DNA of 64,000 nucleotides. It comes from Octopus sinensis (Eukaryota). The stretch spans positions 35,216,001 to 35,280,000 of the forward strand of contig NC_043004.1 in the NCBI RefSeq assembly GCF_006345805.1. The letters run 5' to 3'. Below the pieces are notes generated by a model. The model saw nothing but the letters and a program-made list of their open reading frames with translations. It was not told where the DNA came from and searched no databases. The position numbers and the translations under genes are program-made. Below, piece by piece: positions 14,293 to 62,859 of the stretch; position 1 is the stretch's first letter, and every line of letters begins with the position of its first letter.

Positions 14293-14574
14293 AGTTCCAT
14301 ATTTAAGAGAAGAGGAATTATTTACATTTGATGGATATTTGTCCTCATGGTGTAGTGGTTAAGAGCACAGGTTACTAAACCCAAGATTCTGAGTTCGATT
14401 CCAGGCAGTGACCTGAATAATAATAATAATAATAACGTTGAAAAATACCTTAGGAATGAGAACCCAAGTTCAAAACTTCCCCAAGTCACCTGATGAAGGC
14501 TGAAGGGTATATCAGCCGAAATGTGTTAACAACAAACGAGATGAGGACAAATATCAGTCAAATGTAAATAATGT
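14293..14574 (+). mobile_element. Family A unit: inverted tail fragment + tRNA-like head + (AAT)n + hammerhead
   Basis: 14293-14348 is the reverse complement of the family's 3' tail; 14347-14574 matches the Penelope terminal repeat at 58091-58436. Confidence 0.85.
14484..14527 (+). ncRNA. Minimal type-I hammerhead ribozyme (family A), small deletion in stem III
   Basis: cac-CTGATGA-a-GGCTG aagggtatat CAGCC-GAAA-t-gtgtt. Confidence 0.65.
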
Positions 14575-15469
14575 TCCCAGACTAGTTTTATAGCATGCCA
14601 ACTGATGGCAGCACATGGTTGTGTACGCGGTGAAAGCAAGCAGTGACCTTCATGAGGCAGTATGTTGAGTGACAGCCTGTGTTTACTTCACAAGTTGTGA
14701 AATTTGTGTTTATGTTGTCACATATATGCTGTAGTCTGTGATTTTGTCATGGAGAGGAACAAAGAACCAAAGTGAAATTTTGAATTAAACTAGGAAAATC
14801 AGCTAGGGAGACAATATTATGCTTCAGCAAGCATGCAGCAACGAGGCTATGGGTTGCACACAATGTTTTGAGTGGCATGGGTGCTTCAAAAATGGAAGAA
14901 TGTCCCTGGAAGACGATGAACGATCTGATGGACCTGCAAGGAGTGGCAACATCAGAAATGTGGTATTGGGCAGCAAGAATTCATTCTTCAGGGCCAGACC
15001 ATCAATCAAGAGTTCTTCTGCAACATTTTGAAGCATTTGAGGGAAGGAATTTGGTGAAAGCGATCAGATCTGTGGAGCAAGAATTGCCTCTTCATGACAA
15101 CAATGCACTCTGTGACCGAGCATTCTTCATTCATGAGTTTCTCACCAAAAACATTGCTATTGCTTCTGCACCCAACCGATTCACCAGATTTAGCACCTGT
15201 AGACTTCCAGCTCATCCCCAAGATAAAAATGCAACTCAGCTTAAAGGTTGTTGTTTTAACACTGTTGTTGAGATCCAGAATGGATCGCAGATGGTCCTTG
15301 ACTTGCTTACATAAAATGACTTCCAGACCAGATTCCAAAAGTGGCAGGCAATACTCTGGAACCAGTGTATTGCTGTGCAAGGTGACTATTTCAAAGGAGA
15401 TGATTTTAAAACTTAGGTAAATAAGTTATATTTTAATAAACATAACTAGTTCGGAACCCTTTTGATACC
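14575..15469 (+). mobile_element. Internally deleted, decayed mariner transposon
   Basis: HTH-like QCFEWHGCFKNGRMSLEDDERSDGP and catalytic remnants LHDNN and HPTDSPDLAPVDF; terminal gttcccagactagtt / aactagttcggaac inverted pair. Confidence 0.85.
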
Positions 15470-15703: not shown

Positions 15704-16564
15704 TACCCTTTTGATACCACTATCCTCATAACTGACTGACTGCCTGCCACCCAGTATTTACTCTGTGGTTTACCTCAGATCTGAGCCATCTGGACTTCTC
15801 CTTCTGGACACTTTTTCTCCTGTAAACACCAACCTCATTATGATCACCAATTGCATGAATTTTTAGGAGAGGAATGTAGTTTGTGCTTTGGTGCTAAATG
15901 TCCTTTCTTCTCTGATTATTTACAGAAACTTAGACTAGATTTCAATCCCCAACTCCCACTGTTTTCATTGGCTCTCCCTTATACTCAAGAAAGATATGTA
16001 TGTTGCACTTTCCACTTCTCCCTCTGTGTGGTGGGTTGCTCAAGTAAATAACTCCTGGACCAGATGCAAAATGCTTAAAAATACTAAAATGTTAGCCATC
16101 CATGTTGCTTGCATTAAAATCCACCACATGTGTTTCTTTGTGTATTTGGTCAGTATTTGAGAGGCATCTATGCGCTTAACTGTTAGGAATCCATATCAGG
16201 TTACATGTAAATGTCATATGGGATAGTAAGGGACCTAATTCACAGAAATATTCATTTAATCTCAAGAAACAAAATTTAAGCACTAGTACCTACAAATAAT
16301 CAACCATAAACACCAAACATTACATAATGACTAAATAAAACATTTATCAGTTTTCAGTTAACTCATAAAGTATAGATACGGTTGCTGTTCTACTCTAGAG
16401 TGTTTAACATTTTGGAATAATCTAAAACCACAAATATATGAACAACCATTTGTCAATCAAATTTTGAACACTACTGCAATTACTGGTACTAAGTTGATAA
16501 AATTAACTTACTACCAATGAGTTGATGGTAAATTAGTAGTTAATAGTAAATTAGTAAGTTAATA

Positions 16565-16840
16565 TCATGCCATGCTACCCTAGACTGATGACGAGCAAGA
16601 CTCAGAAACATGTCTCTGGATGCAGGCCTAGCTGTTGGGGGTACTTGTCTCCCCTTCGCAAATATAAGGACACAGGAAATGTGTCAAAGCCGACAGGAAG
16701 AGTCGATGCTTCCTAGGGCTAAATAGCGGTGGTGTGATTCCCTTTACGGGACTGTCACATTAAGTTGACAGTATACAACCACTCTATCATTCCACCACCG
16801 GTCATATCTCTCTGAGATATTTAGAAATTTAATATTTCTA
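16565..16840 (+). mobile_element. Family B hammerhead-containing retrozyme-like element with 12-bp direct repeats
   Basis: agtaagttaata at 16553-16564 and 16841-16852; HHR near the 5' end; body homologous to 62480-62690. Confidence 0.8.
16580..16619 (+). ncRNA. Minimal type-I hammerhead ribozyme, core intact
   Basis: ctaga-CTGATGA-c-GAG caaga CTC-a-GAAAC-at-GTC-tctgg; stem I ctaga/tctgg, palindromic stem III ACATGT, GUC cleavage triplet. Confidence 0.85.
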
Positions 16841-18824
16841 AGTAAGTTAATAACATTAGTAGAATGTTAAGCTAAAAGCCTTACAGCAAAGCCATATAAA
16901 AGCAGATCCATCAGTCTGGAGGTCTTGGAAAGCAAAGGAGGAATTTATGAACATCAGACAGACCCATTTCTTTAAAACAAAGCCCAAAATACAGCCTGTT
17001 TGAATTTTAACATTTCCCCTTTTCTTATCTTGGAATCCAAAACAAGTCTTGTTCCATTTTGCACTGTTTCCCTCAGAAGCTCTACTCACCTAGTTTTATT
17101 TTATCTTCTAATTTCCAAAGAGAAATACATTGACTTTTATTTCAACTTTCTCAAGATGACAGAATAAATATCTTTAATATTTCATAACTAGATTTTACTA
17201 AATGTTGGCACAAGGACAGCTATTTTGGCAAAGGGGCTGATTCAATTACATCAACCCCATTGCTCAGCTAATACTTATTTTATCTACCCCAAAACAAAGA
17301 GTCAACCTTGGCAGTATTTGATCTCAGAATATGTAGCTTGATGAAATTCTGCTAAGCATTTTGCCTGGTGTGCTAACCACTCTACCAGCTCACCACCTTT
17401 GAGAATTGTTGTCTAAGTATTTAATGGTAAGTGATTATTGAAAGCAAATTGTGCTTAGTCAAAAGCATTGTCAGTGTTCCATTGTTATGAATAATAGTTA
17501 AGGATTATTGCTGATGCAACCAGAGGACATCATCTGTTTCTCCATTTAATGAGACATTTTCCTACATAACAACCTTTCACATGTCATCAGTGACATGTCT
17601 TTTGGTCATTAAGTGTCTCAGAGCTTTCAACAGTATATACACCCTTATCCAGGTGATAAAGTTGGGGTTGATCAAATACCTGTTTGTATCCAATTATTAT
17701 TACCCCTCTACTTCCTCCCCAACTAACCCCCAGATGCTCTTTTGTTAACTTGTCCTTGTGATGCCAAACATGATGTTTGTTTCCCATATTAATTCTTGCA
17801 AAGATGGTGGCAAGCTGGCTGAATTATTGGCATGCCAGGCAAAATGCTTAGCAGCATTTTGCCCATCTTTACTTTCTGGGTTCAAATTGCACAGGGGATA
17901 AATTTTCTTTTATCCTTTCAGGGTCAACAGAATAAGTATCAGTTAAACACTTGGGGGTTCAAAGTAATTGGCTTACCCCCTCCCCACAAAACTGTCAAAA
18001 TTTGAAACCAATATTAATTTTTTGCAACATAAATAATTTTTGTGCAACTTATTCAGCAGAAGACATTTCTACCAAAACAGTTCCTGGTTGCAGTCTGAAG
18101 TTATGTCACACATTAAAAATAACTTTTCAGACATTTGACTTTGATATACCACATTAAGGGGCCAATATGCAGCCATCGTAAAAATACTACATCTGATTAT
18201 CTTTACAAAATGCAATGTTACCTCCCAGCTGTATCTGATTAATTTCATAATTAGTTTCATAATGAAAAGTGTCCATTAATTGTTTCCGATATGACAAGAA
18301 AATAATTATCTAACTCGATTCATGAAATGACTTATTGATAGCCTTACATTTCTAAATCATTATTTTTAACTTTCATATAGCTCTCCTCCCCTCAGTCCAC
18401 TTATTAACATTCATCACTGCTCCTTATTATTGTCTAACCCTTCTACTATTAACCATCCCTCTCTCTCTCTTCCTCCCTCCTTCACTCTATCACCATCCAC
18501 CACTCTCCCCTCTCTTCCACTAATCATTATCTCTACCAACATGCCCTTACACCCTTCATCCGCTCTTAGTTTTTCTTCTGTCATTGTTTGCTTTTCTAAT
18601 CATCTTGGTGCTTACATTGCCTCGTGCAACCAGTTTCACCATAGACAAGTAAGGGTTCCAAGATAGAACACAATCTCCCTAATGCTGGTGCCATATTTAG
18701 ATGTATTCACTTTGAAGTGGGTGGCAGAAAACAGGGACTACATCAGGTCAATAGGACCTTTTGGTCTTGTCATGGACACGATAAATTCTTTAGTACTTCA
18801 GCCCGAATAAAATTCATCCAGGAC

Positions 18825-25654: not shown

Positions 25655-25770
25655 ATACATATATTATATACATATATATATACACATATATACATACTAT
25701 ATATATAATACATATATATATATATACATATATATATATACATATATACATACATATATATATATATCTA
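25073..25770. repeat. ~700-bp (TA)/(TACA) compound microsatellite
   Basis: Directly visible. Confidence 0.95.
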
Positions 25771-25774
25771 GTAT

Positions 25775-26298
25775 ATTATATAAAAGGGCTTAGTAAAATA
25801 AATTACTTTGCCACATACTGAACTCATTAGAAATAGTAGCTAAAAAAACTTTTTTAAAACTATTTCTAATACTTAAAGAAAATCTCTCTAGTGTTTACTG
25901 ATTTTAACCCACGCTGGTGGAAAGGGGAGAGCAGAAATTCTTCGCTTGCATATTTTGGATTTGCTGGCACTGATAGTTCGAGCAGATCTTCAGAAGCGAT
26001 AAGAAGCCGAAAGGGTATGCTCCCACTTTCAGTGTTTTCAAATCCGAACCAAGGAGTTCTGAGCTGACGAAAGAAATGTCGATTTGACTAATCTAGAAAC
26101 GTACGTTCTCAAATACCTTTGCATTTGATTTTTAATGTCTTTACCCCCATACTTTTGTGAGTTGAATTGAGCAAACACTATATGAGAGAGATTTTCTTTA
26201 AGTATTAGAAATAGTTTTAAAAAAGTTTTTTTAGCTACTATTTCTAATGAGTTCAGTATGTGGCAAGTAATTTATTTTACTAAGCCCTTTTATATAAT
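25775..26298 (+). mobile_element. Family C element: ~115-bp inverted arms enclosing a hammerhead
   Basis: 25775-25889 is a near-perfect reverse complement of 26185-26298; HHR at 26060-26111; embedded in (TA)n. Confidence 0.85.
26060..26111 (+). ncRNA. Type-I hammerhead ribozyme
   Basis: tgag-CTGACGA-a-AGA aat GTC gattt GAC taa TCT-a-GAAAC-gtac-GTT-ctca; stem I tgag/ctca, palindromic stem III AACGTACGTT. Confidence 0.8.
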
Positions 26299-26394
26299 GT
26301 AATAATTTGAATTCGCCTTAAATGGTCCCTTGCATACTGAATACTTGTGAAATTGATTAATAATTAATTAATTTTACCCTCAATTGTTGAAATT

Positions 26395-36900: not shown

Positions 36901-37480
36901 AACAATAACATTTTCTCTACTTTTTGTTTAAGAAAGCATCTGCTTTATACGAATTTCTGAGGAAAATGTTTAAAAGCCCTGGAAATGAAATTCCAAAGTC
37001 AAAATTTAATAAAGATATCTTGCATAGGAGCAAAAGGATCTGAAGATCATTAAAATGATGACAGAAAATATAATAACCATGGTGACATATTTGTTTTTAA
37101 TGGTTTCACCAGAAAGAGAAGGGCAAAGTTCTTTATTCTGAAGGAGACTGAGACTAATGTGGAGAAAATAAACTAAAAAACATAATTGATAGTTCATTCT
37201 CAGATTGAAAACCTGGATATAAGGCTTATAAAAGCACAGATTCAGTTAAATGTACCCAAGAACCAGGTGGTAGTTTTAAACCAAGCTAATGGATTATGTC
37301 TACCCCTAAGAACAGGTACAGTCACAGCTGATGGGCTTATGTGCCACCTGCACGGGAGCACGTAAAAAGCACCATCTGAACGTGGCCGATGCCAGTGACC
37401 CCTGACTTTCTCCCGTGTCAGTGGCATGTAAAAAGCACCCACTACAGTCTCAGAGTGGTTGACATTAGGAAGGGCATCCT

Positions 37481-37688
37481 GTGGGCATATGGCGTAGTGG
37501 TTAAGAGTATGGGCTACTAACCCCAAGATTCTGAGTTCGATTCCAGCAAAATATACCTTAGGAATGAAAAACTAGGTTTGAAATTTCCCCAAGACACCTG
37601 ATGAAGGCTGGAGGGTATATCAGCCGAAACATTGTGTTAACAACAAACAAGATGAGAACAAAATCCGTCAAAATGTAAATAATGTACT
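37481..37688 (+). mobile_element. Family A standalone unit (tRNA-like head + hammerhead) inserted in an S3 repeat
   Basis: gggcatatggcgtagtggttaagag...ctactaa...gagttcgattcc...accttaggaatg...HHR...aatgtaaataatgta; S3 sequence on both sides. Confidence 0.85.
37592..37638 (+). ncRNA. Minimal type-I hammerhead (family A)
   Basis: gacac-CTGATGA-a-GGCTG gagggtatat CAGCC-GAAAC-att-gtgtt; the inferred consensus GAAACGTT has a CpG-type change here. Confidence 0.75.
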
Positions 37689-38720
37689 TAGACAAAAAAA
37701 AATCTAACCCATGCCAGCTTGGAAAGTGGACGTTAAACGATGATAATGATGAGATTTCACTATAAAAACTTGGATCAACCCAACACTATGGTGGAATCAA
37801 TTTTTCCAAAGGTGCTGTAGTTTGTGATCAAACCCAGAACACACTATTCTTAAACATAAAGTCATATCCTAGTCACATTATCTTGATTCTAGCCAAAACT
37901 GGTGCTTTTTATTTATTTATTATTATTATTTTTTTTTTTGGCATCCAAAGCAGAAATCCAGAAGATGTCATAGATTAGTCAATGACATCTCAGCTAGTTT
38001 TCAGATGAATATCTGAAGAATTCTAAAGAATTAGAAAATTCCTGAAGGATATTTGAGTTCACTAACTTTAACGTCTAAATAACTTTATTTTCTCCAAAGC
38101 TAAACAAAACAAAAAATTACATAGGTTTATATTCATGCATCTACATAAATTTATTATGCATATAGTTTGGCAAAATTAATTCTAGAGGAAATTTTCCAAA
38201 CTATTAACCCCCTTATTTAGAGCTTCTATTAACAAATTTCAACTGGTTTGATCTTTAATTATCGTTAGGTATCACCTTTGAAGTTAATAGTCCCAAAGTT
38301 TTAATTATTCTAGAAACATCTTCCAGAAACTTATAATCATTTATTTTATTGTTTTAAATTTAATTTTCTGAGACAAATTCAGTTGGATTTTATTTTGCTT
38401 TAGTTTTTGAACTCAGATATGTAACCAGAGCAACTTCTTTCACAGTTGGATACTTTGCTGTTTTTTCTTTTGCTATGTTACATCCAATTTCCCCTGCTGC
38501 AATGGTTAGCAACATTTTTTTTATACATCTCTACAGTTTCACAGTCTTAGAATAATCATATTAAAAATAATCTTTCTAACACTGACCGTTCAGCTGTGAA
38601 ATAGAAGAAAAACCTGTGGACAGTGTGTTCACTAGACTAAAGTGTGTGGGCAGAGTTTCCTCTTCATAAGAAGTACAATACACTGACTAAATACTACTAC
38701 TACTAATAATAATAATAATA

Positions 38721-40090
38721 TTTGGTATGAGCACAAACCACAGAGTGTTAGTCAGAGACTAGTAATATCCTCTGGGATCTCCCAATCCAAACAGATCAGG
38801 TGCTGGAGCATAACAGAGTGGACCCAATGGTGGTGGACAAGGTACACCATATATGCGATATAGTTGATGCTGCTTGCCTTTTTGACCCACAAATAGTCAA
38901 AAAGAAAGATGAAAAGATAGAGATACAATCCTCTTAAGTATGAAATAGCCTGGCTATCTAAGTATTAGATAGCTGAAAAGAATGAATAACATGGTACCGT
39001 AGGCTGGAGGTAGCAAGCATGCTATGCATGCAAGACTCCAGGAGCTCCAACAAAACCTTTGATGAAGAAAAAAAAAATAATAATAATAAAAATGCATGGT
39101 AGATTCTCAAAGATAGTTGCAGAAAGGAAAGCTGAAAAGGGGGGCAGAAAGTTTGTTAGTAATAGCATAAGATCAAGCATTAAGGTCTAATTGGATAAAA
39201 GCCAAGATAAACAAAAACCAAGTAGATTCCCAATGAAGATTATGCAAATCAAAAGAGGTAAGCGTTACTGATATGGTAAGTGAATGCAGCAGGCTGGCAG
39301 AAAAAGAATACAAGAAAAGACATAACAACCTAGGGAGAGCAATCCACTTGGAACTATATAGAAAGGTAGGATTTGACCATACCGATAAATGGTATAAACA
39401 TGAACCTAGTAAAGTACAAGAAAGTAAGAAATACAAGATGTTGTGTGACTTTAATATTCAGACTGACAGAGGAATAGAAGCTAGAAGGCCTCATTTAGTA
39501 GTAGTAGATAAAGAGAATAGAAAGTGCCAGATAACTGACTGTGGTGAGCTGGCAGAATCATTACCACGCCGGGCAAAATGCTTGGCGGTATTTCATCTGC
39601 TGCTACGTTCTGAGTTCAAATTCCGCCAAGGTTGACTTTGCATTTCATCCTTTTGAGGTCGATAAATTAAGTACCAGTTACGCACTGGGGTCAGTATAAT
39701 CGACTTAATCCCTTTATCTGTCCTTGTTTGTCCCCTCTATGTTTAGCCCTTTGTAGGCAATAAAGAAATAAGATAATTGACTTTACAGTCCCAAGTGATG
39801 GAAAATTAATATGAGAGGTATAGAAAAAGTAGCAAAGTGCCAGGACTTAGCCATTGAATTACAGAGAATATGGAAAGTGCGGGTAAAATGTTTCCCTGTA
39901 GTTATAGCTGCATTAGGAACTATCCCTAAAAGTTTGAACAGATGGAAATAGGCATAAAACCCAGTAGAGCTCCAGAAAACAGTGTTATTAGGGACAGCTT
40001 GGTTACTTAGGGGGTTTCTTGGCATCTAAGCTTACTAGTTGCAGCCTGATGTTAGGAATTTTTATTTTCCAACAGTCTAATCTGTTGTAT
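38721..40090 (+). mobile_element. Two tandem 5'-truncated R4/Dong-like RLE retrotransposon remnants in (AAT)n
   Basis: ILWDLPIQTDQVLEHNR..; SECSRLAEKEYKKRHN...WYKHEP...DFNIQTDRGIEARRPHLVVVDK; each starts after an AAT run; second copy split by an S2 SINE. Confidence 0.85.
39541..39771 (+). mobile_element. SINE family S2 with TSD
   Basis: TSD gataactgact / gataattgact. Confidence 0.9.
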
Positions 40091-48444: not shown

Positions 48445-50335
48445 AGGAGATTGGAATAGAATACTCTGTAGCACTCCTACAGAAAGTTTATCTCTTAGGG
48501 AGAGCAAAGGTTATCAGGAGGGTTCTAAGCACTTAAAAGACTACTGAAAATTTGTGGATACTTAAGGCTACATGTAGTAACCTGCTACCCACATAAATTC
48601 TACCAAGACCGAGCCTGAGTCAAACCAAAGACTAAGATTGGTGTTGTACTAAAAACTGGCCAGATAGAGTAATATCCGAGCAGTTTAATACATGGGTGAT
48701 AGCATCACTATGGTATGGAGCTGGAATCATAAACTGGCAAAAGAAAGAACTGATGAACATGGATTTGAAGACAAGAAAAATATTGAGTGTGTGTGGAGAC
48801 TTCCACCCCAAGAGTGACACTGATAGGCTGTACTTGTCCAGAAGAAAGGGTGGGAGAAGTTTGATAAGTTACCAGGACTGTTTTGAAGCAGAGGAAAACA
48901 GCTTAGTGTGGTATGTAAAAAATGTCTTGGAACCATTGTTAAAACATGTGAAGAAATCCATCATCATTTAACTTCCACTTTCCATGCTAGCATGGGTTGG
49001 ATGGTTTGATCAGGGTCTGGGAAGCCAGGAGGCTGCACCAGGCTCCAGTCTGATCTGGCAGTGTTTCTACAGCTGGATGCCCTTCTTAACGCCAACCACT
49101 CCGTGGGCGTAGTGGGTACTTTTTACATGCTAGGGGAAGCTGGCAGTGGCCACGATTGGCTTTTTGCATGCCACCGGCACAGAAACCAGTCAAGGCGGTG
49201 CTGGCATTGGCCACGTTCGGATGATGCTTATTTTGTGCTGCCGGCACAGGTATCATAACTACAATTTCTATTTGATATTTATTTTGATGCTGATGTACTT
49301 GACTCAATAGGTCTTCTCAAGCACAGCAGATCACCCTACAATCCAAGGTAAGCACAGCAGGTCGATCTGCAATCGAAGGTACTTTGGATGGGCTGGGGCT
49401 ATCCAGTATCACGAAAATTGATAATGGTGCAAAGAAAGAATATCTTAAAGAGGGAAAGAACACACACAAAAAAAAAGAAACATCATGGATGGAGAAAAAA
49501 TGTATGGTCAGTTTGCAAGAGATACAAATGTCAAGACAGATACAGAAGACCAGTGGCTCTGGATGAGGAGGAGTGACCTGAAGATAGAGACAGAAGCTCT
49601 CATACACGCAGCACAAGAACAAGTGTGACGGGCTAACTTTATGAAGTACAGAATAGACAATACAAATGACAACAAATGCAGATTGTGTGGTGAGAGGTGT
49701 GAAATGGTATGGTACATTGGTAGTGAATGCTCGAAATTGGCACAACGGGAATACAAAAGACACCATGACAATGTGGCAAGAATGATCCATTGGGAGCTCT
49801 GTGAAAATCATTGCTGACAAATAGCAAAGACATGGTATGAGCATACACTGCAGCAGGTGTCACTGAGAATGAAGGTTGCAAAGTCCTGTGAGATGCAATG
49901 GTTCAGTGCAGTCACCTGACCAGGCACTAGAAACCAGACATTGTTGTGGGGGGGGGGAGGAGAACTTGCCTGATAATTGGTATAGCATGTCCTGGTGACA
50001 ACAGCATCAATGTGAAAGAAGAAGAAAAGCTGAACAACTATGACGATTTGATGTGGGAAATAGAAAGGTTGAGGTCAATGAGGAGAGTAGACATGATACC
50101 AATAGTAATTGGTTCACTTGGAAGTATCAGCACTCAACTACAAACATCGCTGAAAAAGATCGGTGCAAATGTGAAGGTAGAACACCTACAAAAATCAGCA
50201 TTGCTTGGAACTGCAAGAAATCTTGGCAGGGTTCTTGAAGTATGACCAGTAAACAAGTGTCACCTTAGTCCACTGGCTGTGGACAGCAGACACTTTCCAT
50301 CATACCAAGCAAAATAAGCTGTGAGTTTTCATATA
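48445..50335 (+). mobile_element. Decayed R4/Dong-like RLE retrotransposons (short 3' fragment plus longer copy split by S3)
   Basis: YGAGIINW...DLKTRKIL...HPKSDTDRLYLSRRKGGRSL; CRLCGE..WYIGSEC..EYKRHHD; IACPGD...PIVIGSLG...QKSALLGTAR. Confidence 0.9.
48960..49400 (-). mobile_element. Family S3 repeat nested in the Dong-like element
   Basis: Reverse-complement match to 32298-32718. Confidence 0.85.
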
Positions 50336-50695
50336 TTAATAATAATAATGGTTTCAAATTTTGGTTCGATAAAGATGTAAACAAATGAATATCTTATAGA
50401 GCCTCTACAGAATGTTTGCCTCTTAGGAACACGAAAAATCATCAGAAAGGTTTTGAACACTTGAAAGATTATTGAAAGCTGGTGGATCTAAGGTTAGGGT
50501 ACAATACAAGTAGTTTTAGTGGGAGGGGTCAGTTGATTAAATAAACCCCTTCCTCGTGCTTGACTGATTCTCTGTTTTATTGTCCTGGCAGTATTTGAAT
50601 TGAGAATGTAAAGAACCAGAACAAATGTGAATAAGCATTGTGTCCAATACACAAACAACTCTGCCATCTCACCTTCATGACAATGATGATGATAA

Positions 50696-51550
50696 TTGAA
50701 AACGAATGAAACTGAAAAATAGGTGGGTAAAGAAAAGAATGCATGGTCAATTTCATAGGGATGTTGAAAAAAGATGGCTGTGGATGACTAAAAGTGATTT
50801 AAAACCAGAAATGGAGACTCTAATGTGTCTGCCCAAGAGCAAGCAAGCACTAAAAACAAACTACATAAAATACAGAATAGACAACACAGCAGAACGTGAT
50901 AAGAGCAGAATCTGTGGACAAAACGGTGAAACCGTATGGCATATTACCAGTCAATGTACACCACTAGCCCAGAAGGAATATAAGAGAGGCCATGACAATA
51001 TAGCAAGGCTTGTCCATTGGATACTTTGCAACAAGTATGGACTTGACAGAGCAAAACATTGGTACAACCACAAACCTAAAGGCATTGTCAAAAATAGAAA
51101 TGCAAAGATCCTATGGGATTTTATGATTCAGTGCGACCATGAGATAGAGAATAGGAAGCCAGACATAGTCTTAATTGAGGAAGAAAACAAACTATGCTGG
51201 ATCACAGATATAGCATGCCCAGCTGACAAGGTATGCGATAAGGAAGAAAGAAAAGTCGAGAGATATGACAGGTTAGCTTGGGAAGTTAAGCATTTGTGGT
51301 TGATGAAAAAGGTAGCAGTAGTACCAATAATTGTTGGAGCCCTGGAAACAGTGAACAAAAATCTCGAGAGGTATGTGGAACAAATAGGGGCTGCAATAAG
51401 GGTGGAGCACTTGCAGAGAACAGCACTGCTTGGAACCGCCCGAATACTCTGGAAGGTCCTTGAAAAATAAGATGTGTTAACTTAGTTCACTGGTAGTCAA
51501 CAGCTGACACCATAGTACATCTCCAGCGTTAGAAGCTGTGCAAAGGCAAT
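50696..51550 (+). mobile_element. 5'-truncated R4/Dong-like element; open 254-aa C-terminal ORF (50706-51470) with zinc knuckle and RLE endonuclease
   Basis: SRICGQNGETVWHITSQC (CCHC-like), RGHD, ILWDF, RKPDIV...DIACP, PIIVGAL, ALLGTARIL; flanked by (GAT)n. Confidence 0.9.
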
Positions 51551-55431: not shown

Positions 55432-56290
55432 AGGGTGCGGTGAATATATTGTCGTCTAAATTACGTAAAAATGTAAAATAACACTGGCATCCCATTTTAA
55501 CAGATATATTTACCAAAATTACTTTAAAATGTCTTGAAATACTAAAGAGTAAATTTATTCAGTAAAATCGCCATTTCATTGGATTCAACCATGGCCTCCA
55601 GACAACTTTGGAATCTCTTGGAACGCTTCTGGACTGACTCCTTGTTTAATTTAGTGAAAGATGCCATAAACCTTGCCTTCAGTTCATCACGTTATGCGCG
55701 GGTGGGGATCAACTGTGTTCCACACATAATAATCAAGGGGGTTGCAGTCTGGGGAGTTAGGTGGCCAGATGTTAGGGGTGATGGGGTCACAGAAATTGTC
55801 TGACAGCCATGACTGGGTTCTCCTGCTTGTGTGGCTGTGTGTAGAGTCCTGTTGCCAGATGTAGGGTCTTCCAGCAGCCACCCTCTTCACCTGTGGCAGC
55901 ACTACCCCCTCCAGACACTTGATGTAGGCCTCCATGTTGAGTCTGAAGCTGCGTGGGAAGACAAATGGAGGCATAACATCGCCATCACTAGTGATCACTC
56001 TGGACACCATGATGTTGACTGGATGTTTGATTTTTATCACTCATGGAACATATCCTCAGATTGACACCCAGGCACTCTGAATTGTTTGTATTGGAGCTTC
56101 TGCCATGAATACCGAGCAATATGGCATGTTTCCAAATTTTTGGCAGAGTGAATTGTATCCTTGTGTTTTGTATCTCACAGACAGTGCCCAACTGACCCTA
56201 CTACACTGTGTAGTTGACAAAATCAAAAGCAACCAATGCACATGCACACAAATTAGAAGTATAATAAAAACATTTTACCCATCACACCCT
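55432..56290 (-). mobile_element. Internally deleted Tc1/mariner-superfamily transposon (DD37D/maT-like)
   Basis: WQQDSTHSHTS...IWPPNSPDCNPLDYYVW; imperfect TIRs agggtgcggtgaatatattg / cattttacccatcacaccct. Confidence 0.85.
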
Positions 56291-57660: not shown

Positions 57661-58168
57661 GAGAATGAAAGAGCCTTTATGTGGTTGTGCAACATGCCAG
57701 AAATGGTAGTCAAATTTTCTGAAACTATACCCATCCATAGATTTTGAAAATAAAACAGCTCATTGGCTAATCTTGCTGGATGAATTTTCTGAAAATAAGA
57801 TGGAATGCTCACAACTAGAATAATTGGCCTGACCTGGTGCTAATATTCCAGTAGATTATTGGCACATAAGAGTTGTGAGATCTTCTATAGCTAATTCTGC
57901 TGACAAGTTCCAGATTTGTTGCCTCTCCCAAAATCTTGAATTCAGATCTCGCAGGAGTATATTTTACTTTCCATCCCCAGTTGACAAAGGAATGAATAAT
58001 AAGGGTTTCAGATTTTGGCACAAGGCCAGCAATTTCAAGGAGGATTTAAGTTGATTATATCAATCCCAGCATTCAACTGGTACTTATTCAGTTCTATGTT
58101 TAAGAGATAAAAAATTATGTACATTTATTTACAATTGACGGATATTTGTCCTCATCTTGTTTGTTGTT

Positions 58169-58216
58169 AACACAACATTTCGGCTGATATACTCTCCAGC
58201 CTTCATCAGGTGTCTT
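58169..58216 (-). ncRNA. Minimal type-I hammerhead in the Penelope terminal repeat (family A)
   Basis: Minus strand gacac-CTGATGA-a-GGCTG gagagtatat CAGCC-GAAAT-GTT-gtgtt. Confidence 0.8.
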
Positions 58217-58361
58217 GGTGAAATTTTGAACCTGGGTTCTCATTCCTAAGGTATTTTTCGATGTTGTTGTTGTTGTTATATTATTATTATTATTATCATT
58301 ATTATTATTATTACTATCATTATTATTATTATTATTATTATTATTGTTGTTGTTGTTGTTC

Positions 58362-58435
58362 AGATCACTGCCTGGAATCAAACTCAGAATCTTGGGGTTA
58401 GTAGCCTATGCTCTTAACCACTATACCAGATGCCC
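58362..58435 (-). promoter_or_regulatory. tRNA-like segment with Pol III A/B boxes inside the Penelope terminal repeat
   Basis: Family consensus tggcgtagtgg (A box), anticodon-like loop ctactaa, gagttcgattcc (B box); acceptor stem imperfect, so not called as a tRNA gene. Confidence 0.7.
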
Positions 58436-58464
58436 GTGGGCAATTATAGAGTGAATTTTAGGGC

Positions 58465-59690
58465 TTATAATTCCAATATTCTCCTATCCTTCCTTAATAC
58501 CGATTCCATATGCTGTTCATATCTACACTTGGTCTGCTTAGGAGGTTGTTGTGTCCTAGCATATGGGCTGCTTCTTTTAATTTTCATATTTTCTTGTGGT
58601 GTTCTCTGTCTATTATTTTAACTTCATCCCACAGGGGGAAGTGGTCTTCATTTTTCCATACATGATCAGCTATACCTGATTTATCAATATCTCCCCGTGT
58701 CACAGCTTTGTGATGTTCCTCTACCCTTATTTTGAGGGGGCGGCATGTTTTGCCTTTGTATAACCTACTACAGCTGCATGGGATAGAGTACACACAGTTC
58801 TTAGTTATATTCTCTTCTACTGGTGGTTTTATTCGAAGGAGATATTTGCAAAGTGTTGAATTACTTTTGAATACTGTCCTGATGTCATATGGGGCACATA
58901 TCTTTTGTATCTTTTCGGAGAGGCCTTTCACAGAGGGTAGACAGACTGTGGACAGTTTATCGATTTCATCCTCTCTTTTCTTCATAATTGGAGTGGAGAG
59001 TATGCTTTTGGGGTAGTTGTTGCTTAATAGATTGTTACTGAACTTGATCATTTCTTCGTGGTGGGTATCACGATTGTTACTTATATTCATTGCTCGATGT
59101 TTTAGGTGCTAAGCAATCCCTCACTTTACACTGTATGGATGGTGTGCATTGAGGTTGAGGTATCATCCAGTGAAGGTCGGCTTGCGGTATACGGATGTCC
59201 TGAATCCATACCTGGTGCGTGTTATTAATACATCCAGGAATGCTAGCTGTCTTTTTCCTTTTCTGTTGTGAACTATATGGATGGCTTTATTGAGTTCACA
59301 TGATCTAACAGCACTTGGACATCTTCCTGGTGGGGCCAGAGTATGAAGGTGTCATCAGCATATTGTAGCCATAGGGTTGGTTTTAGTGGTGTTGATCCTA
59401 AAGCCAAATTCTCAAAGCATTCCATGTGTATATTGGCTATTACTGGTGATAATGGTGAACCCATAGCTAAACCCTCTTGTTGTCAATATATATCAGTGTC
59501 CATACTGAAGTAGGTAGTTTCTACACAGAAGGTCAACATTTCCATCAAGTTTCTTATTAGTGTACTAGTGAATTCTTTTAGATAGGTATCTGTCACTAGT
59601 TTTTCTTGAATCACCGATAGTGCTTCACCAGTTGGGACTTTGGTGAACAGACTTATCACATCTAGACTCACCATCACGTTGGACTCAGTG
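58465..59690 (-). pseudogene. Penelope/Poseidon-type reverse transcriptase + GIY-YIG endonuclease, with stops and frameshifts
   Basis: VSLDVISLFTKVP, GLAMGSPLSPVIAN, YADDTF, FLDV, VYRKPT, then CVYSIPCSCSRLYKGKT..RVEEH..SGIADH. Confidence 0.92.
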
Positions 59691-59764
59691 GGAGTATCTT
59701 TGGTGTAGTGGTTAAGAGCACAGGCTACTAACCCCAAGATTCCGAGTTCAATTCCAGGCAGTAA

Positions 59765-59795
<31 letters not shown>

Positions 59796-60039
59796 GATTA
59801 ATAATAATAATAACATCGAAAAATACCTTAGGAATGAGAACCCAGGTTCAAAATTTCCCCAAGACACTTGATGAAGGCTGGAGCATATTCGCCATCTACT
59901 TCAATTACTGCTTCCCATTTGCTTGGCAGACGGTCAGACTGTCATTTAAAGATGTTTTTTGTTATATATTGTTGTTTTGGTTGAATAAAATTTGTTGTAA
60001 AAACCTGTAATAATAATGCACCAACCCAATATAATATTT

Positions 60040-60256: not shown

Positions 60257-61628
60257 AACGAATGCTGTCTTTTTTTCACCAGATAAGTACTTCCAATTAG
60301 ATTGTCTTTGCTTATGACATTAAATATATTAACACTATCTTAACAAGTTCAGAAGTTCTTCATTATGTTGTATCTTTGACCAAGATATCCACCTCGACTT
60401 GCTCCAGTTTGCCTGACTGAACCAAACAATGGATGCCGTTCTTATTTCATGGTTGAACAGTTAACAGCAGAAAAGCATCCAGCTGTAAAAACAATTATTC
60501 TAGCAAACAAACCAAACCACACATTTAAATATGGAAAAAATGGATATAAAATTGTATAAATTTAATTTAAAATATTAGCCACGTGAACTCTAAAATAAGT
60601 ACTGATCTCTGGTTGCCATGAAAAATATTTTCATGGTGTTTAGCTAATGAGAAGAATTCAAGTGAAGAGATTGTGAAATAAGAATAATGTATTCAAAGAT
60701 ATTTACATTCATTCGACATTTATTTTCTCTATCTGCCGGCTTCCTCATGCTGGTTTCACAATCATGTACAAAACTCAATATCTGTAACAAACTGAACCAA
60801 GTTCTTAATATAATCCAGTTTTGGTGAAGAGTCTTTGCTACTATACAACAACCTAAAAGCCATTAACAATCATCATCATCATCAGTATAATCCACATATC
60901 TCTCAATTACATCCTGATGCAGCTCAAGCCAAATGCCTGATCTATTTAATTTTACACAGTGGTTGCCTCTCCTATCAGAACTTTATCTTAATGACTGCAA
61001 GGGATCTATTTCCCTCAGAAACGTTAGCATACCTTTCCCTCAGAAACGTTAGCATGCCTTTCATCCTTTCGGGGTTGATAAATTAAGTACCAGTTACGCA
61101 CTGGGGTCGATGTAATTGGCTTAATCCCTTTGTCTGTCCTTGTTTGTCCCCTCTGTGTTTAGCCTCTTGTGGGTAGTAAAGAAATAGGTTTTACTTGATG
61201 GTTTGAAAGTATCACCCAACAAAAATTAACCAAACCTTTAACCATTACACACACAAACTAGTTGGAGTGATATTTATGTTAAATTTCAACAGTTTCACAT
61301 CAATTAATGCAGGAATATTGTAAGCAGGGTAGGAATTCCAGAGGGATCATGTTGAGGGGGAAAATGATTGTGAATAGCAATACTGAATGGGTGGCAAGAG
61401 GATGGGAGTTAAGTGCAAGCGATGAGGTTGGATGAGGATAATAAGCCAGTGTCAGGAGTAGAGGCCGTTGTGGTAGTTGTAGAAGAGGTCGAATAATGAC
61501 AAGACAAGAGGTCTGTTGGAGTAAAGATTGTTTGCCAACATAATATGGCAGTCCTGGTTTAGGACGAATGTTGCTGTAATTTAGCCCCAGGAGACATCAT
61601 CTCTAGCTGGCTATATGACATGATCTGT

Positions 61629-62176
61629 CATCATCATCATTGTCATTTAATGTCCGCTTTCCATGCTGGCATGGGTTGGACAGTTTGACTGAGGACTGGT
61701 GAGCAAGAAGACTGCACCAAGCTCAATCTGATCTGGCAAAGTTTCTACAGCTGGATGCCCTTCCTAATGCCAACCTCTCCGAGAGTGTAGTGGGTGCTTT
61801 TATGTGCCACCGGCACAAGGACCAGTCAGGCAGTTCTGGCAACGACCACGCTCAAAAGGTGTTTTTTATATGCCATCTGCACGGGAGCCAGTCTGACGGC
61901 ACTGGCAATGACCATGCTTGAATGTTGTTTTACATGTGCCAGTAAGGAGATGCTGGCAACAATCACACTCGAATGGTGCTTTTTATGTGCCACCAGCACA
62001 GGAGCCAATCTGTGGCCCTGGCAAAAATCATGCTCGGATGTGCTTTTAACATTCTACTGGTATGAGTACCAATCAGGAAGTACTGCCATCGGCCACATCA
62101 GCGATTTTGATTTGATTTGATTTCAATTGCCTCAATAGGTCTTCGCAAGCAAAGTTTATTGTCCAATGAGTGAGGG
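61629..62176 (-). mobile_element. Family S3 repeat with expanded internal ~50-bp units
   Basis: Several tandem ggtgcttttatgtgccac-type units; GAT tail on the minus strand. Confidence 0.85.
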
Positions 62177-62424
62177 GTGTCCTTATATTTTCAAACAAGG
62201 GATGTCTTCTGGGGCTAAATTACAGCAACATTCATCTTAAACCAGGACTGCCATGATATGTTGGCAAACAACCTTTACTCCAAAGTACTGTTGCTGAATA
62301 TCTCTCATTATGAGATTTACAAATAGTAATTTTCTAATTTATAGATCAGTGACTAGTTGTCACTTTGAAAACTATATATTTCAAACGGGTATTTGGCAGC
62401 GCCACCTGTAGCCAAACAATTATT

Positions 62425-62467
62425 CCGAGCTGATGAAGAGAAATAACCCAGAAATCGTGATACACAG
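62425..62467 (+). ncRNA. Degenerate type-I hammerhead (family B)
   Basis: ccgag-CTGATGA-a-gag aaataa ccc-a-GAAA-tcgtga-ta-cacag; core present, stems mismatched. Confidence 0.55.
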
Positions 62468-62859
62468 ATGTTGTTTTGAGCTGAGTGGGGGTGCTAGATT
62501 CCCTTGTTTGAAAATATAAGGACACAGATCATGACATATAGCCAGCTGGAGATGATGTCTCCTGGGGCTAAATTACAGCAACATTCGTCCTAAACCAGGA
62601 CTGCCATGATATATTGGCAAACAATCTTTACTCCACAGTACTGTTGCTGAATATCTCTCATTATGAGATTTACAAATAGTAATTTTCTAAGAGATCTGTT
62701 GATTGGAAATTTGTGTGTGTTGGTGAGTGACTCCTAACTCATCAACCAGATAGCTTTTTTGGCGGGGATTCAGTCAGGGATGCTTTAGTGTGTAGCAATA
62801 GTACTGTCCTAATTATGTAGTAACAACCAACTAGAGTCATTTAAATCTATTTATACGAT

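What the first reader, a model, noticed from the sequence alone, without database searches (positions are those of the whole stretch)
61508..62700. Inverted + tandem 353-bp HHR unit: footprint of circular or multimeric RNA retroposition
Seen: between near-identical 10-bp direct repeats lie an inverted fragment, a partial direct copy (62203-62337) and a full unit (62338-62690), with period 353 bp and one degenerate HHR per unit. Inference: a more-than-unit-length permuted insert is what reverse transcription around a circular RNA or a tandem precursor would give, matching the retrozyme model; the inversion implicates PLE enzymes.
Basis: partly seen in the sequence, partly recalled or inferred. 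Interest (0 to 1): 0.75.

Follow-up and report, generated by a model that had tools for sequence, protein, structure and literature searches.

The report
Penelope-mobilised ORF-less hammerhead element insertion
This is an old insertion of a small non-coding mobile element that carries a decayed self-cleaving RNA motif and has the layout typical of Penelope-type retrotransposons; it is a tidy example of a known kind and does not prove a circular RNA intermediate.

Summary
The anatomy is real. Between a 10-13-bp target-site duplication lie an inverted piece, a 135-bp direct partial copy and one 353-bp ORF-less unit, pairwise 94-96% identical. Two corrections: the inverted piece is one fragment split by a 548-bp high-copy repeat, and the locus holds only one hammerhead (HHR), with broken stems.

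A 55%-identical paralogue at 16565-16841 has an intact minimal HHR, the same 3' end, a 12-bp duplication and a covarying 3' RNA domain (11 of 31 pairs compensatory). The unit is therefore a structured, retroposed RNA family.

Inverted piece + partial tandem + duplication is the published layout of Penelope-like element (PLE) insertions. 4 of 6 HHR loci in this window have the inverted piece, one being a decayed PLE 2 kb away. PLE mobilisation is well supported.

A circular template is not shown. The 353-bp 'period' rests on one junction; an uncleaved tandem transcript or a template jump gives the same result, and published in vitro work favours unprocessed RNA. I could reach no second copy. 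Verdict: a new member of a known kind (non-autonomous PLE / animal retrozyme-like); low to moderate interest.

The parts
61506..61518 (+). Left target-site duplication (core 61508-61517; outer bases are junction microhomology)
   Evidence: 12 of 13 identical to 62689-62701; chance 0.08%
61518..61628 (-). Inverted piece, part A (unit 62635 to 62524); begins 55 nt short of the element's 3' end
   Evidence: 107 of 112 nt identical
61629..62176 (-). Nested 548-nt high-copy SINE-like repeat with a trinucleotide tail; splits the inverted piece with a 2-nt overlap; not part of the HHR element
   Evidence: 25 BLAST rows in the window including self; longest non-self copies 72-80% identical; junctions
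62177..62202 (-). Inverted piece, part B (unit 62525 to 62500); 2-nt microhomology with the direct copy
   Evidence: 26 of 26 identical
62203..62337 (+). 5'-truncated direct copy (pseudo-LTR equivalent): the 3' 135 nt of the unit, no HHR
   Evidence: 129 of 135 identical to 62556-62690
62338..62690 (+). 353-nt ORF-less unit, strongly structured
   Evidence: MFE -99.5 kcal/mol, z -4.29, 0 of 100 shuffles; longest stop-free frame 60 aa
62381..62511 (+). Long rod (62381-62413 with 62478-62511) enclosing the HHR
   Evidence: 27 pairs with p>0.8 in both linear and circular folds; z -3.40 for 62338-62525
62424..62468 (+). Degenerate minimal type I HHR: core 62430-62436 and 62451-62454, presumed cleavage after 62462; stem I 4 of first 6 pairs, stem II 2 of 3, self-complementary stem III, extra A before the GAAA box
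   Evidence: does not fold as an HHR alone; no Rfam hit
62537..62690 (+). Conserved 3' multi-hairpin domain ending at the shared 3' terminus; inferred RT recognition/initiation signal
   Evidence: 31 of 31 pairs kept and 11 compensatory with the paralogue; z -11.8, 0 of 300 column shuffles
62689..62701 (+). Right target-site duplication (core 62691-62700)
16565..16841 (+). Divergent paralogue (55% identity): 5'-truncated monomer with intact minimal HHR (core at 16585), same 3' end, 12-bp duplication (16553-16564 / 16841-16852)

Best explanation
One retrotransposition event of a non-autonomous Penelope-type element. SHOWN: an ORF-less, structured 353-nt unit with a minimal HHR, preceded by a 5'-truncated direct copy and an inverted piece, all within a 10-13-bp duplication; a paralogue ends at the same 3' position. 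INFERRED: a PLE RT/GIY-YIG protein acting in trans bound the conserved 3' domain, nicked both target strands about 10-13 nt apart and primed cDNA at a fixed internal site. It copied about 490 nt (1.38 units), passing through the uncleaved HHR. A second cDNA primed from the opposite nick began 55 nt further upstream and was joined by 2-nt microhomology, giving the inversion. A SINE-like repeat later landed in the inverted piece, and the copy decayed by about 2-3% per piece. My split for the template, by judgement: uncleaved head-to-tail transcript about 0.45, circular monomer about 0.25, jump between separate RNAs about 0.25.
For: Layout and duplication. The same layout is described as typical for PLEs, with 8-10-bp duplications, and pLTRs alone suffice for mobilisation in trans (PMC3846280 passages; PMC8557442 passages). 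The HHR fits the published PLE minimal consensus apart from one extra A and a short stem II (PMC4209133). 4 of 6 HHR loci in the window carry an inverted 5' piece, one with RT+GIY-YIG remnants. The paralogue has the same 3' end, a duplication and covarying structure. A purified PLE protein cleaves and extends both strands, starts at two internal RNA sites and uses mainly unprocessed RNA (PMC11167929). No piece of this family ends at the HHR cleavage site.
Against: No autonomous partner was found: the one PLE in the window has an unrelated pLTR, and two 12-13-nt unit motifs were absent from the Craig et al. supplement. The head-to-tail junction occurs once. The 55-nt offset exceeds the published 30-40-nt tail. 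The nested repeat is 11.6% from the majority of 8 other window copies while the pieces it splits differ by 4-5%, which fits 'inserted later' only if a younger subfamily exists outside the window. Covariation rests on two sequences and a structure derived from them.
Confidence: 0.8

Rival explanations
1. The template was a covalently closed 353-nt retrozyme circle, read for about 1.4 turns.
For: Unit length 353 nt, no ORF, G+C about 39% and a stable fold fit animal retrozymes; mussel repeats are 350-390 bp and form circles (PMC7229834). The rod would bring the two cleavage ends together. The insert reads through the cleavage site.
Against: An uncleaved tandem predicts the same things. The circular fold (-94.0) is not more stable than the linear (-99.5). 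The HHR is the minimal, dimer-type form, for which published activity is low; 1 of 9 Xenopus dimers cleaved. In this copy 3 of 9 core-proximal pairs are broken. The Poseidon PLE uses unprocessed RNA.
Confidence: 0.25
2. The unit is not a fixed mini-element: it is the 3' end (pLTR/UTR) of a longer autonomous PLE, truncated at an arbitrary point and joined to a second truncated cDNA by a template jump, so 353 is an accident of this locus.
For: The neighbouring PLE has a pLTR of about 300 nt and ORF-less copies at 14348-14571 and 37483-37690, so such truncated ends are common here. Unrelated sequence captured between pLTRs is reported. The paralogue is a lone truncated monomer. The junction is unique in the window.
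Against: The unit is folded from about position 10 onward and the 5' arm pairs with sequence downstream of the HHR. No protein homology was found for the junction-spanning frame or the antisense frame.
Confidence: 0.25
3. Assembly artefact or DNA-level local duplication/inversion.
For: Inverted and tandem PLE structures do trouble assemblies.
Against: Each of the three pieces has private substitutions in their 80-nt overlap (4, 2 and 1); the whole is bounded by a duplication; a paralogue shares the 3' end.
Confidence: 0.04
4. Mobilised by an ordinary LINE (for example RTE-type), with the inversion made by twin priming.
For: Duplication length and 2-nt junction microhomology fit twin priming (own knowledge); a frame resembling non-LTR remnants lies at 50700-51470 (recalled resemblance; no Pfam hit).
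Against: No poly(A) or simple-repeat tail at the 3' end. The inverted and direct partial pieces overlap by about 80 nt, which one linear unit-length template does not give. The HHR is of the PLE type.
Confidence: 0.07

Closest known systems
Non-autonomous PLE derivatives / solo and partial-tandem pLTR insertions (Arkhipova 2013 PMC3846280; Craig 2021 PMC8557442, e.g. MRC1)
   Same: Inverted 5'-truncated piece, partial direct tandem, short duplication, inverted piece lacking the terminal stretch, HHR inside the unit
   Different: No autonomous partner identified; 55-nt offset against a 30-40-nt tail; Chlamys-type non-autonomous elements mostly lack canonical HHRs
Animal non-LTR retrozymes (Cervera and de la Pena 2020 PMC7229834; Li et al. 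bioRxiv 10.64898/2026.07.22.740005)
   Same: 150-450-nt ORF-less unit, type I HHR, low G+C, highly self-paired, duplication longer than 4 bp, co-occurrence with PLEs
   Different: Only 1.38 direct units and one broken HHR; minimal rather than canonical HHR; no array, transcript or circle shown
Minimal type I HHRs of metazoan PLEs (PMC4209133)
   Same: [quoted passage not shown]
   Different: Stem II of only 3 pairs and an extra A between C11.1 and G12, which appears in 1 of the 56 core entries visible in the part of Fig. S3 that I read

Membership tests
PLE-type insertion | Partial tandem: full copy preceded by a 5'-truncated direct copy | tested here: met
   62203-62337 then 62338-62690
PLE-type insertion | Inverted 5'-truncated copy adjoining the 5' end | tested here: met
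   61518-61628 plus 62177-62202, abutting the direct copy with 2-nt microhomology
PLE-type insertion | Short target-site duplication (8-10 bp) | tested here: met
   9 of 10, 12 of 13 with microhomology; 12 bp at the paralogue
PLE-type insertion | 30-40-nt tail present at one end only | tested here: inconclusive
   The inverted piece lacks the last 55 nt; longer than published
PLE-type insertion | Minimal type I HHR with palindromic stem III in the pLTR | tested here: met
   Intact stems in the paralogue (5 of 5, 3 of 3), degenerate here; extra A in both
Autonomous PLE | RT + GIY-YIG ORF within the element | tested here: not met
   Longest frame 60 aa; tblastn of 4 PLE proteins hit only 58.5-59.7 kb
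Non-autonomous PLE | 3' similarity to the pLTR of an autonomous family | not testable with these tools
   No match to the one PLE in the window; no eukaryotic DNA collection available
Animal non-LTR retrozyme | 150-450-nt ORF-less unit, G+C below 50%, highly self-paired | tested here: met
   353 nt, z -4.29, G+C about 0.39
Animal non-LTR retrozyme | At least two consecutive units each with a complete HHR ('active' criterion) | tested here: not met
   One HHR only; isolated region folds at -4.7 kcal/mol in a non-HHR shape
Animal non-LTR retrozyme | Multicopy tandem arrays with a constant period elsewhere in the genome | not testable with these tools
   No second junction in 64 kb; indirect searches empty
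Animal non-LTR retrozyme | Self-cleavage and circular RNA expression | not testable with these tools
   Needs RNA data or an assay
Rfam hammerhead families | Covariance-model match | tested here: not met
   0 hits at gathering score and at E<=10; the other 5 window HHR loci were also missed at gathering score

The most novel reading that the evidence does not exclude
A family of true 353-nt circular retrozymes exists in this animal (probably a cephalopod), carrying a functional HHR variant with an extra A before the GAAA box that is shared by three window loci. This locus would then be a direct genomic record of a PLE enzyme rolling around the circle, and the covarying 3' domain would be the cis-signal by which retrozymes recruit PLE RT, making the unproven retrozyme-PLE partnership testable in vitro.
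Probability: 0.2. Interest if true: 0.6.

Novelty: new member of a known kind. Interest (0 to 1): 0.28.

Why it matters
How PLE partial tandems and animal retrozyme repeats arise (circle, read-through transcript or template jump) is still open, and the retrozyme-PLE link rests on co-occurrence and pLTR homology. This locus adds an ORF-less unit with the full PLE integration signature and a candidate cis-acting 3' RNA domain. One decayed locus cannot settle the template question, but the family offers a cheap test of junction constancy and a defined RNA for in vitro priming assays. Two literature searches (octopus + hammerhead ribozyme; retrozyme + cephalopod) listed no description of a cephalopod retrozyme; that library lacks most subscription papers and Repbase/Dfam were not checked.

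Tried and rejected
Rfam: 0 hits. Two scans of bacterial/archaeal genomes for stray copies: 0 matches each. The profile and covariance model built from the two paralogues found only the input sequences, the partial and inverted pieces and weak matches (best others E 0.003, a terminal hairpin of the paralogue, and E 0.03).

Coding remnant: the frame 62298-62411 reminded me of the end of some PLE endonucleases (recalled; no call supports it). Pfam gave 0 families for 2 of 2 frames. phmmer gave 2 hits, both unrelated tandem-repeat proteins scored over many repeats, which I rejected. The 60-aa antisense frame had no candidate.

The unit start resembles the right flank (7 of 10), but 4.2% of random flanks do as well; rejected. 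Pairing of the unit's first 10 nt in the circular fold was rejected as support for a circle because it uses a base private to the full unit. No exact Pol III A or B box in the unit; the bacterial promoter scan is irrelevant here; no tRNA genes. The relaxed HHR core pattern gave 10 matches, only 3 of which I judged to have stems, so the core motif alone is not evidence.

Substitutions among the three pieces include pair-breaking ones (2 of 11), which fits neutral decay and does not separate the templates.

Not available: names and sources of the protein hits (query could not be made), PMC5785218, bioRxiv supplements, file 1 of the PMC4209133 supplement. Viral and metagenome contigs and all eukaryotic genomes stayed unchecked.

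Full report
CONTEXT. The window is AT-rich (G+C 0.30-0.43) and rich in microsatellites, with dispersed repeats and no long ORF, as in an animal intergenic or intronic region. The repeats look to me like those of Octopus; this is recalled and no call confirms it.

OBSERVATION. Self-comparison gives, left to right: duplication core 61508-61517; inverted piece A (61517-61628, 107 of 112 nt); a 548-nt high-copy repeat (61629-62176); inverted piece B (62177-62202, 26 of 26 nt); direct partial copy (62203-62337, 129 of 135 nt); full unit (62338-62690); duplication core 62691-62700. A and B are contiguous in the unit with a 2-nt overlap, so they are one 136-nt fragment. The flanking repeat is 12 of 13 with microhomology, reached by 0.08% of random pairs. 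Private substitutions in all three pieces argue against mis-assembly.

THE RIBOZYME. A loose core pattern gave 18 matches in the window. I judged 6 to be HHRs from their stems and repeat context: 62430, 16585, 26064, 14490, 37598 and 58209(-). Only one lies in the finding. It has stem I at 4 of its first 6 pairs, stem II at 2 of 3, and a self-complementary 8-nt stem III; alone it does not fold as an HHR, and Rfam misses it. It fits the PLE minimal consensus of Cervera and de la Pena (PMC4209133: main text parts 1-2 of 4; supplement file 2 part 2) except for a short stem II and one extra A before GAAA. The extra A is shared by the 16-kb and 26-kb HHRs. This copy is probably inactive (inference).

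THE UNIT IS A STRUCTURED RNA FAMILY. The unit folds at z -4.29. A rod of 27 high-probability pairs encloses the HHR. A paralogue at 16565-16841 (BLAST E 0.001; 55% identity) has an HHR with intact stems, ends at the same 3' position and sits in a 12-bp duplication, although its left flank is itself a short tandem repeat. In the 3' domain both sequences keep all 31 predicted pairs, 11 by double changes, 6 of 8 in the closing helix. The consensus energy beat all 300 column shuffles (z -11.8), and 2 of 300 shuffles reached 11 compensatory pairs. Caveat: two sequences, structure derived from them. Neither open frame tested has a credible protein relative.

IN-WINDOW CONTROLS. At 58.1-59.9 kb on the minus strand lies a broken PLE. 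Its frame matches RT-bearing proteins at 38-65%, one with a weak GIY-YIG hit, and tblastn maps RT through endonuclease there. It has a pLTR with a minimal HHR and an inverted pLTR piece at its 5' end. An ORF-less copy at 14.3-14.6 kb has an inverted piece carrying a tail absent from the direct copy. A third element at 25769-26304 has a 392-nt direct part and a 144-nt inverted 3' piece. So 4 of 6 HHR loci show the inversion; none was seen at 16 kb or 37 kb. The layout is routine in this genome. The neighbour's pLTR is unrelated to our unit, so it is not the partner.

MECHANISM. Published PLE insertions consist of two direct pLTRs plus an adjacent inverted pLTR within an 8-10-bp duplication, and pLTRs suffice in trans (PMC3846280, passages; PMC8557442, passages and section 10). 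A purified Poseidon protein cuts and extends both strands, starts at two internal RNA sites and mostly uses unprocessed RNA (PMC11167929, parts 1-2 of 4). I infer two target-primed cDNAs: about 490 nt from the fixed 3' site, and 136 nt from a site 55 nt upstream in an A/C-rich loop, joined by 2-nt microhomology. Because the inverted and partial pieces overlap by about 80 nt, one unit-length linear RNA cannot supply everything. A tandem transcript, a circle or a second RNA can. No piece ends at the cleavage site, which excludes only a cleaved linear monomer as sole template.

WHAT IS NOT SHOWN. The period rests on a single junction. Indirect searches for other copies were empty, and no eukaryotic DNA collection was available. 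The circular fold is not favoured over the linear one. The nested repeat looks older (11.6% from the majority of 8 other copies, nearest 14.6%) than the pieces it splits; this is unexplained.

COMPARISON AND NOVELTY. The unit meets the size, composition, structure and duplication features of animal non-LTR retrozymes (PMC7229834, parts 2-4 of 6) but fails the two-complete-HHR criterion of Li et al. (bioRxiv 10.64898/2026.07.22.740005, parts 1-3 of 5; supplements not seen), who already argue that such elements are non-autonomous PLE derivatives. The circle-as-template idea for PLE tandems dates from 2014. It therefore works like a PLE-mobilised retrozyme-type element; membership as an active retrozyme is not met at this locus. 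Further papers seen only as passages: PMC6765202, PMC3088659, PMC11722881, PMC8967140, PMC10886601. Searches for a cephalopod description listed none.

VERDICT. Real; PLE mobilisation 0.8; circular template about 0.25; new member of a known kind; interest 0.28. The most useful by-products are the covarying 3' domain and the HHR variant with the extra A.

Noticed in passing
window 58100-59888 (-): Broken, 5'-truncated PLE (RT + GIY-YIG remnants, frameshifts and stops) with pLTR, minimal HHR at 58209 and an inverted pLTR piece at 59701-59883 that starts inside HHR stem II.
   Followed up: yes
window 14348-14571 (+), 37483-37690 (+), 58100-58440 (-): The pLTR of that PLE family begins with a tRNA-like head (exact B box in 2 of 3 copies, one mismatch in the third), then usually an AAT run, then the HHR. 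The inverted piece at 59701 stops at the start of this head. It may be a Pol III SINE-like non-autonomous PLE.
   Followed up: partly
window 25769-26304: Third ORF-less HHR element: 392-nt direct part (HHR core 26064, fold z -2.4) plus a 144-nt inverted 3' piece with no mismatch over 112 aligned nt, so probably young; lies next to an (AT)n tract.
   Followed up: partly
window 62450, 16604, 26095: Three HHRs from two unrelated families share an extra A between stem II and the GAAA box, which strict descriptors reject; such HHRs may be under-counted.
   Followed up: partly
window 61629-62176: Nested SINE-like repeat with an internal duplication of about 115 nt; more diverged from other window copies than the element it interrupts.
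   Followed up: partly
window 37363-37755: A PLE pLTR copy has inserted into a copy of the same SINE-like repeat, the reverse nesting order to the finding.
   Followed up: no
window 62342-62351 vs 62691-62700: The unit start resembles the target duplication at 7 of 10 bases with a 4-nt offset; chance about 4%.
   Followed up: yes
window 48636-51470, 39237-39635: Frames that look like decayed non-LTR retrotransposon remnants (recalled resemblance; no Pfam hit for the one tested).
   Followed up: no
window 14784-15314, 55687-56040: Frames resembling decayed Tc1/mariner transposases (recalled resemblance; no convincing Pfam hit).
   Followed up: no
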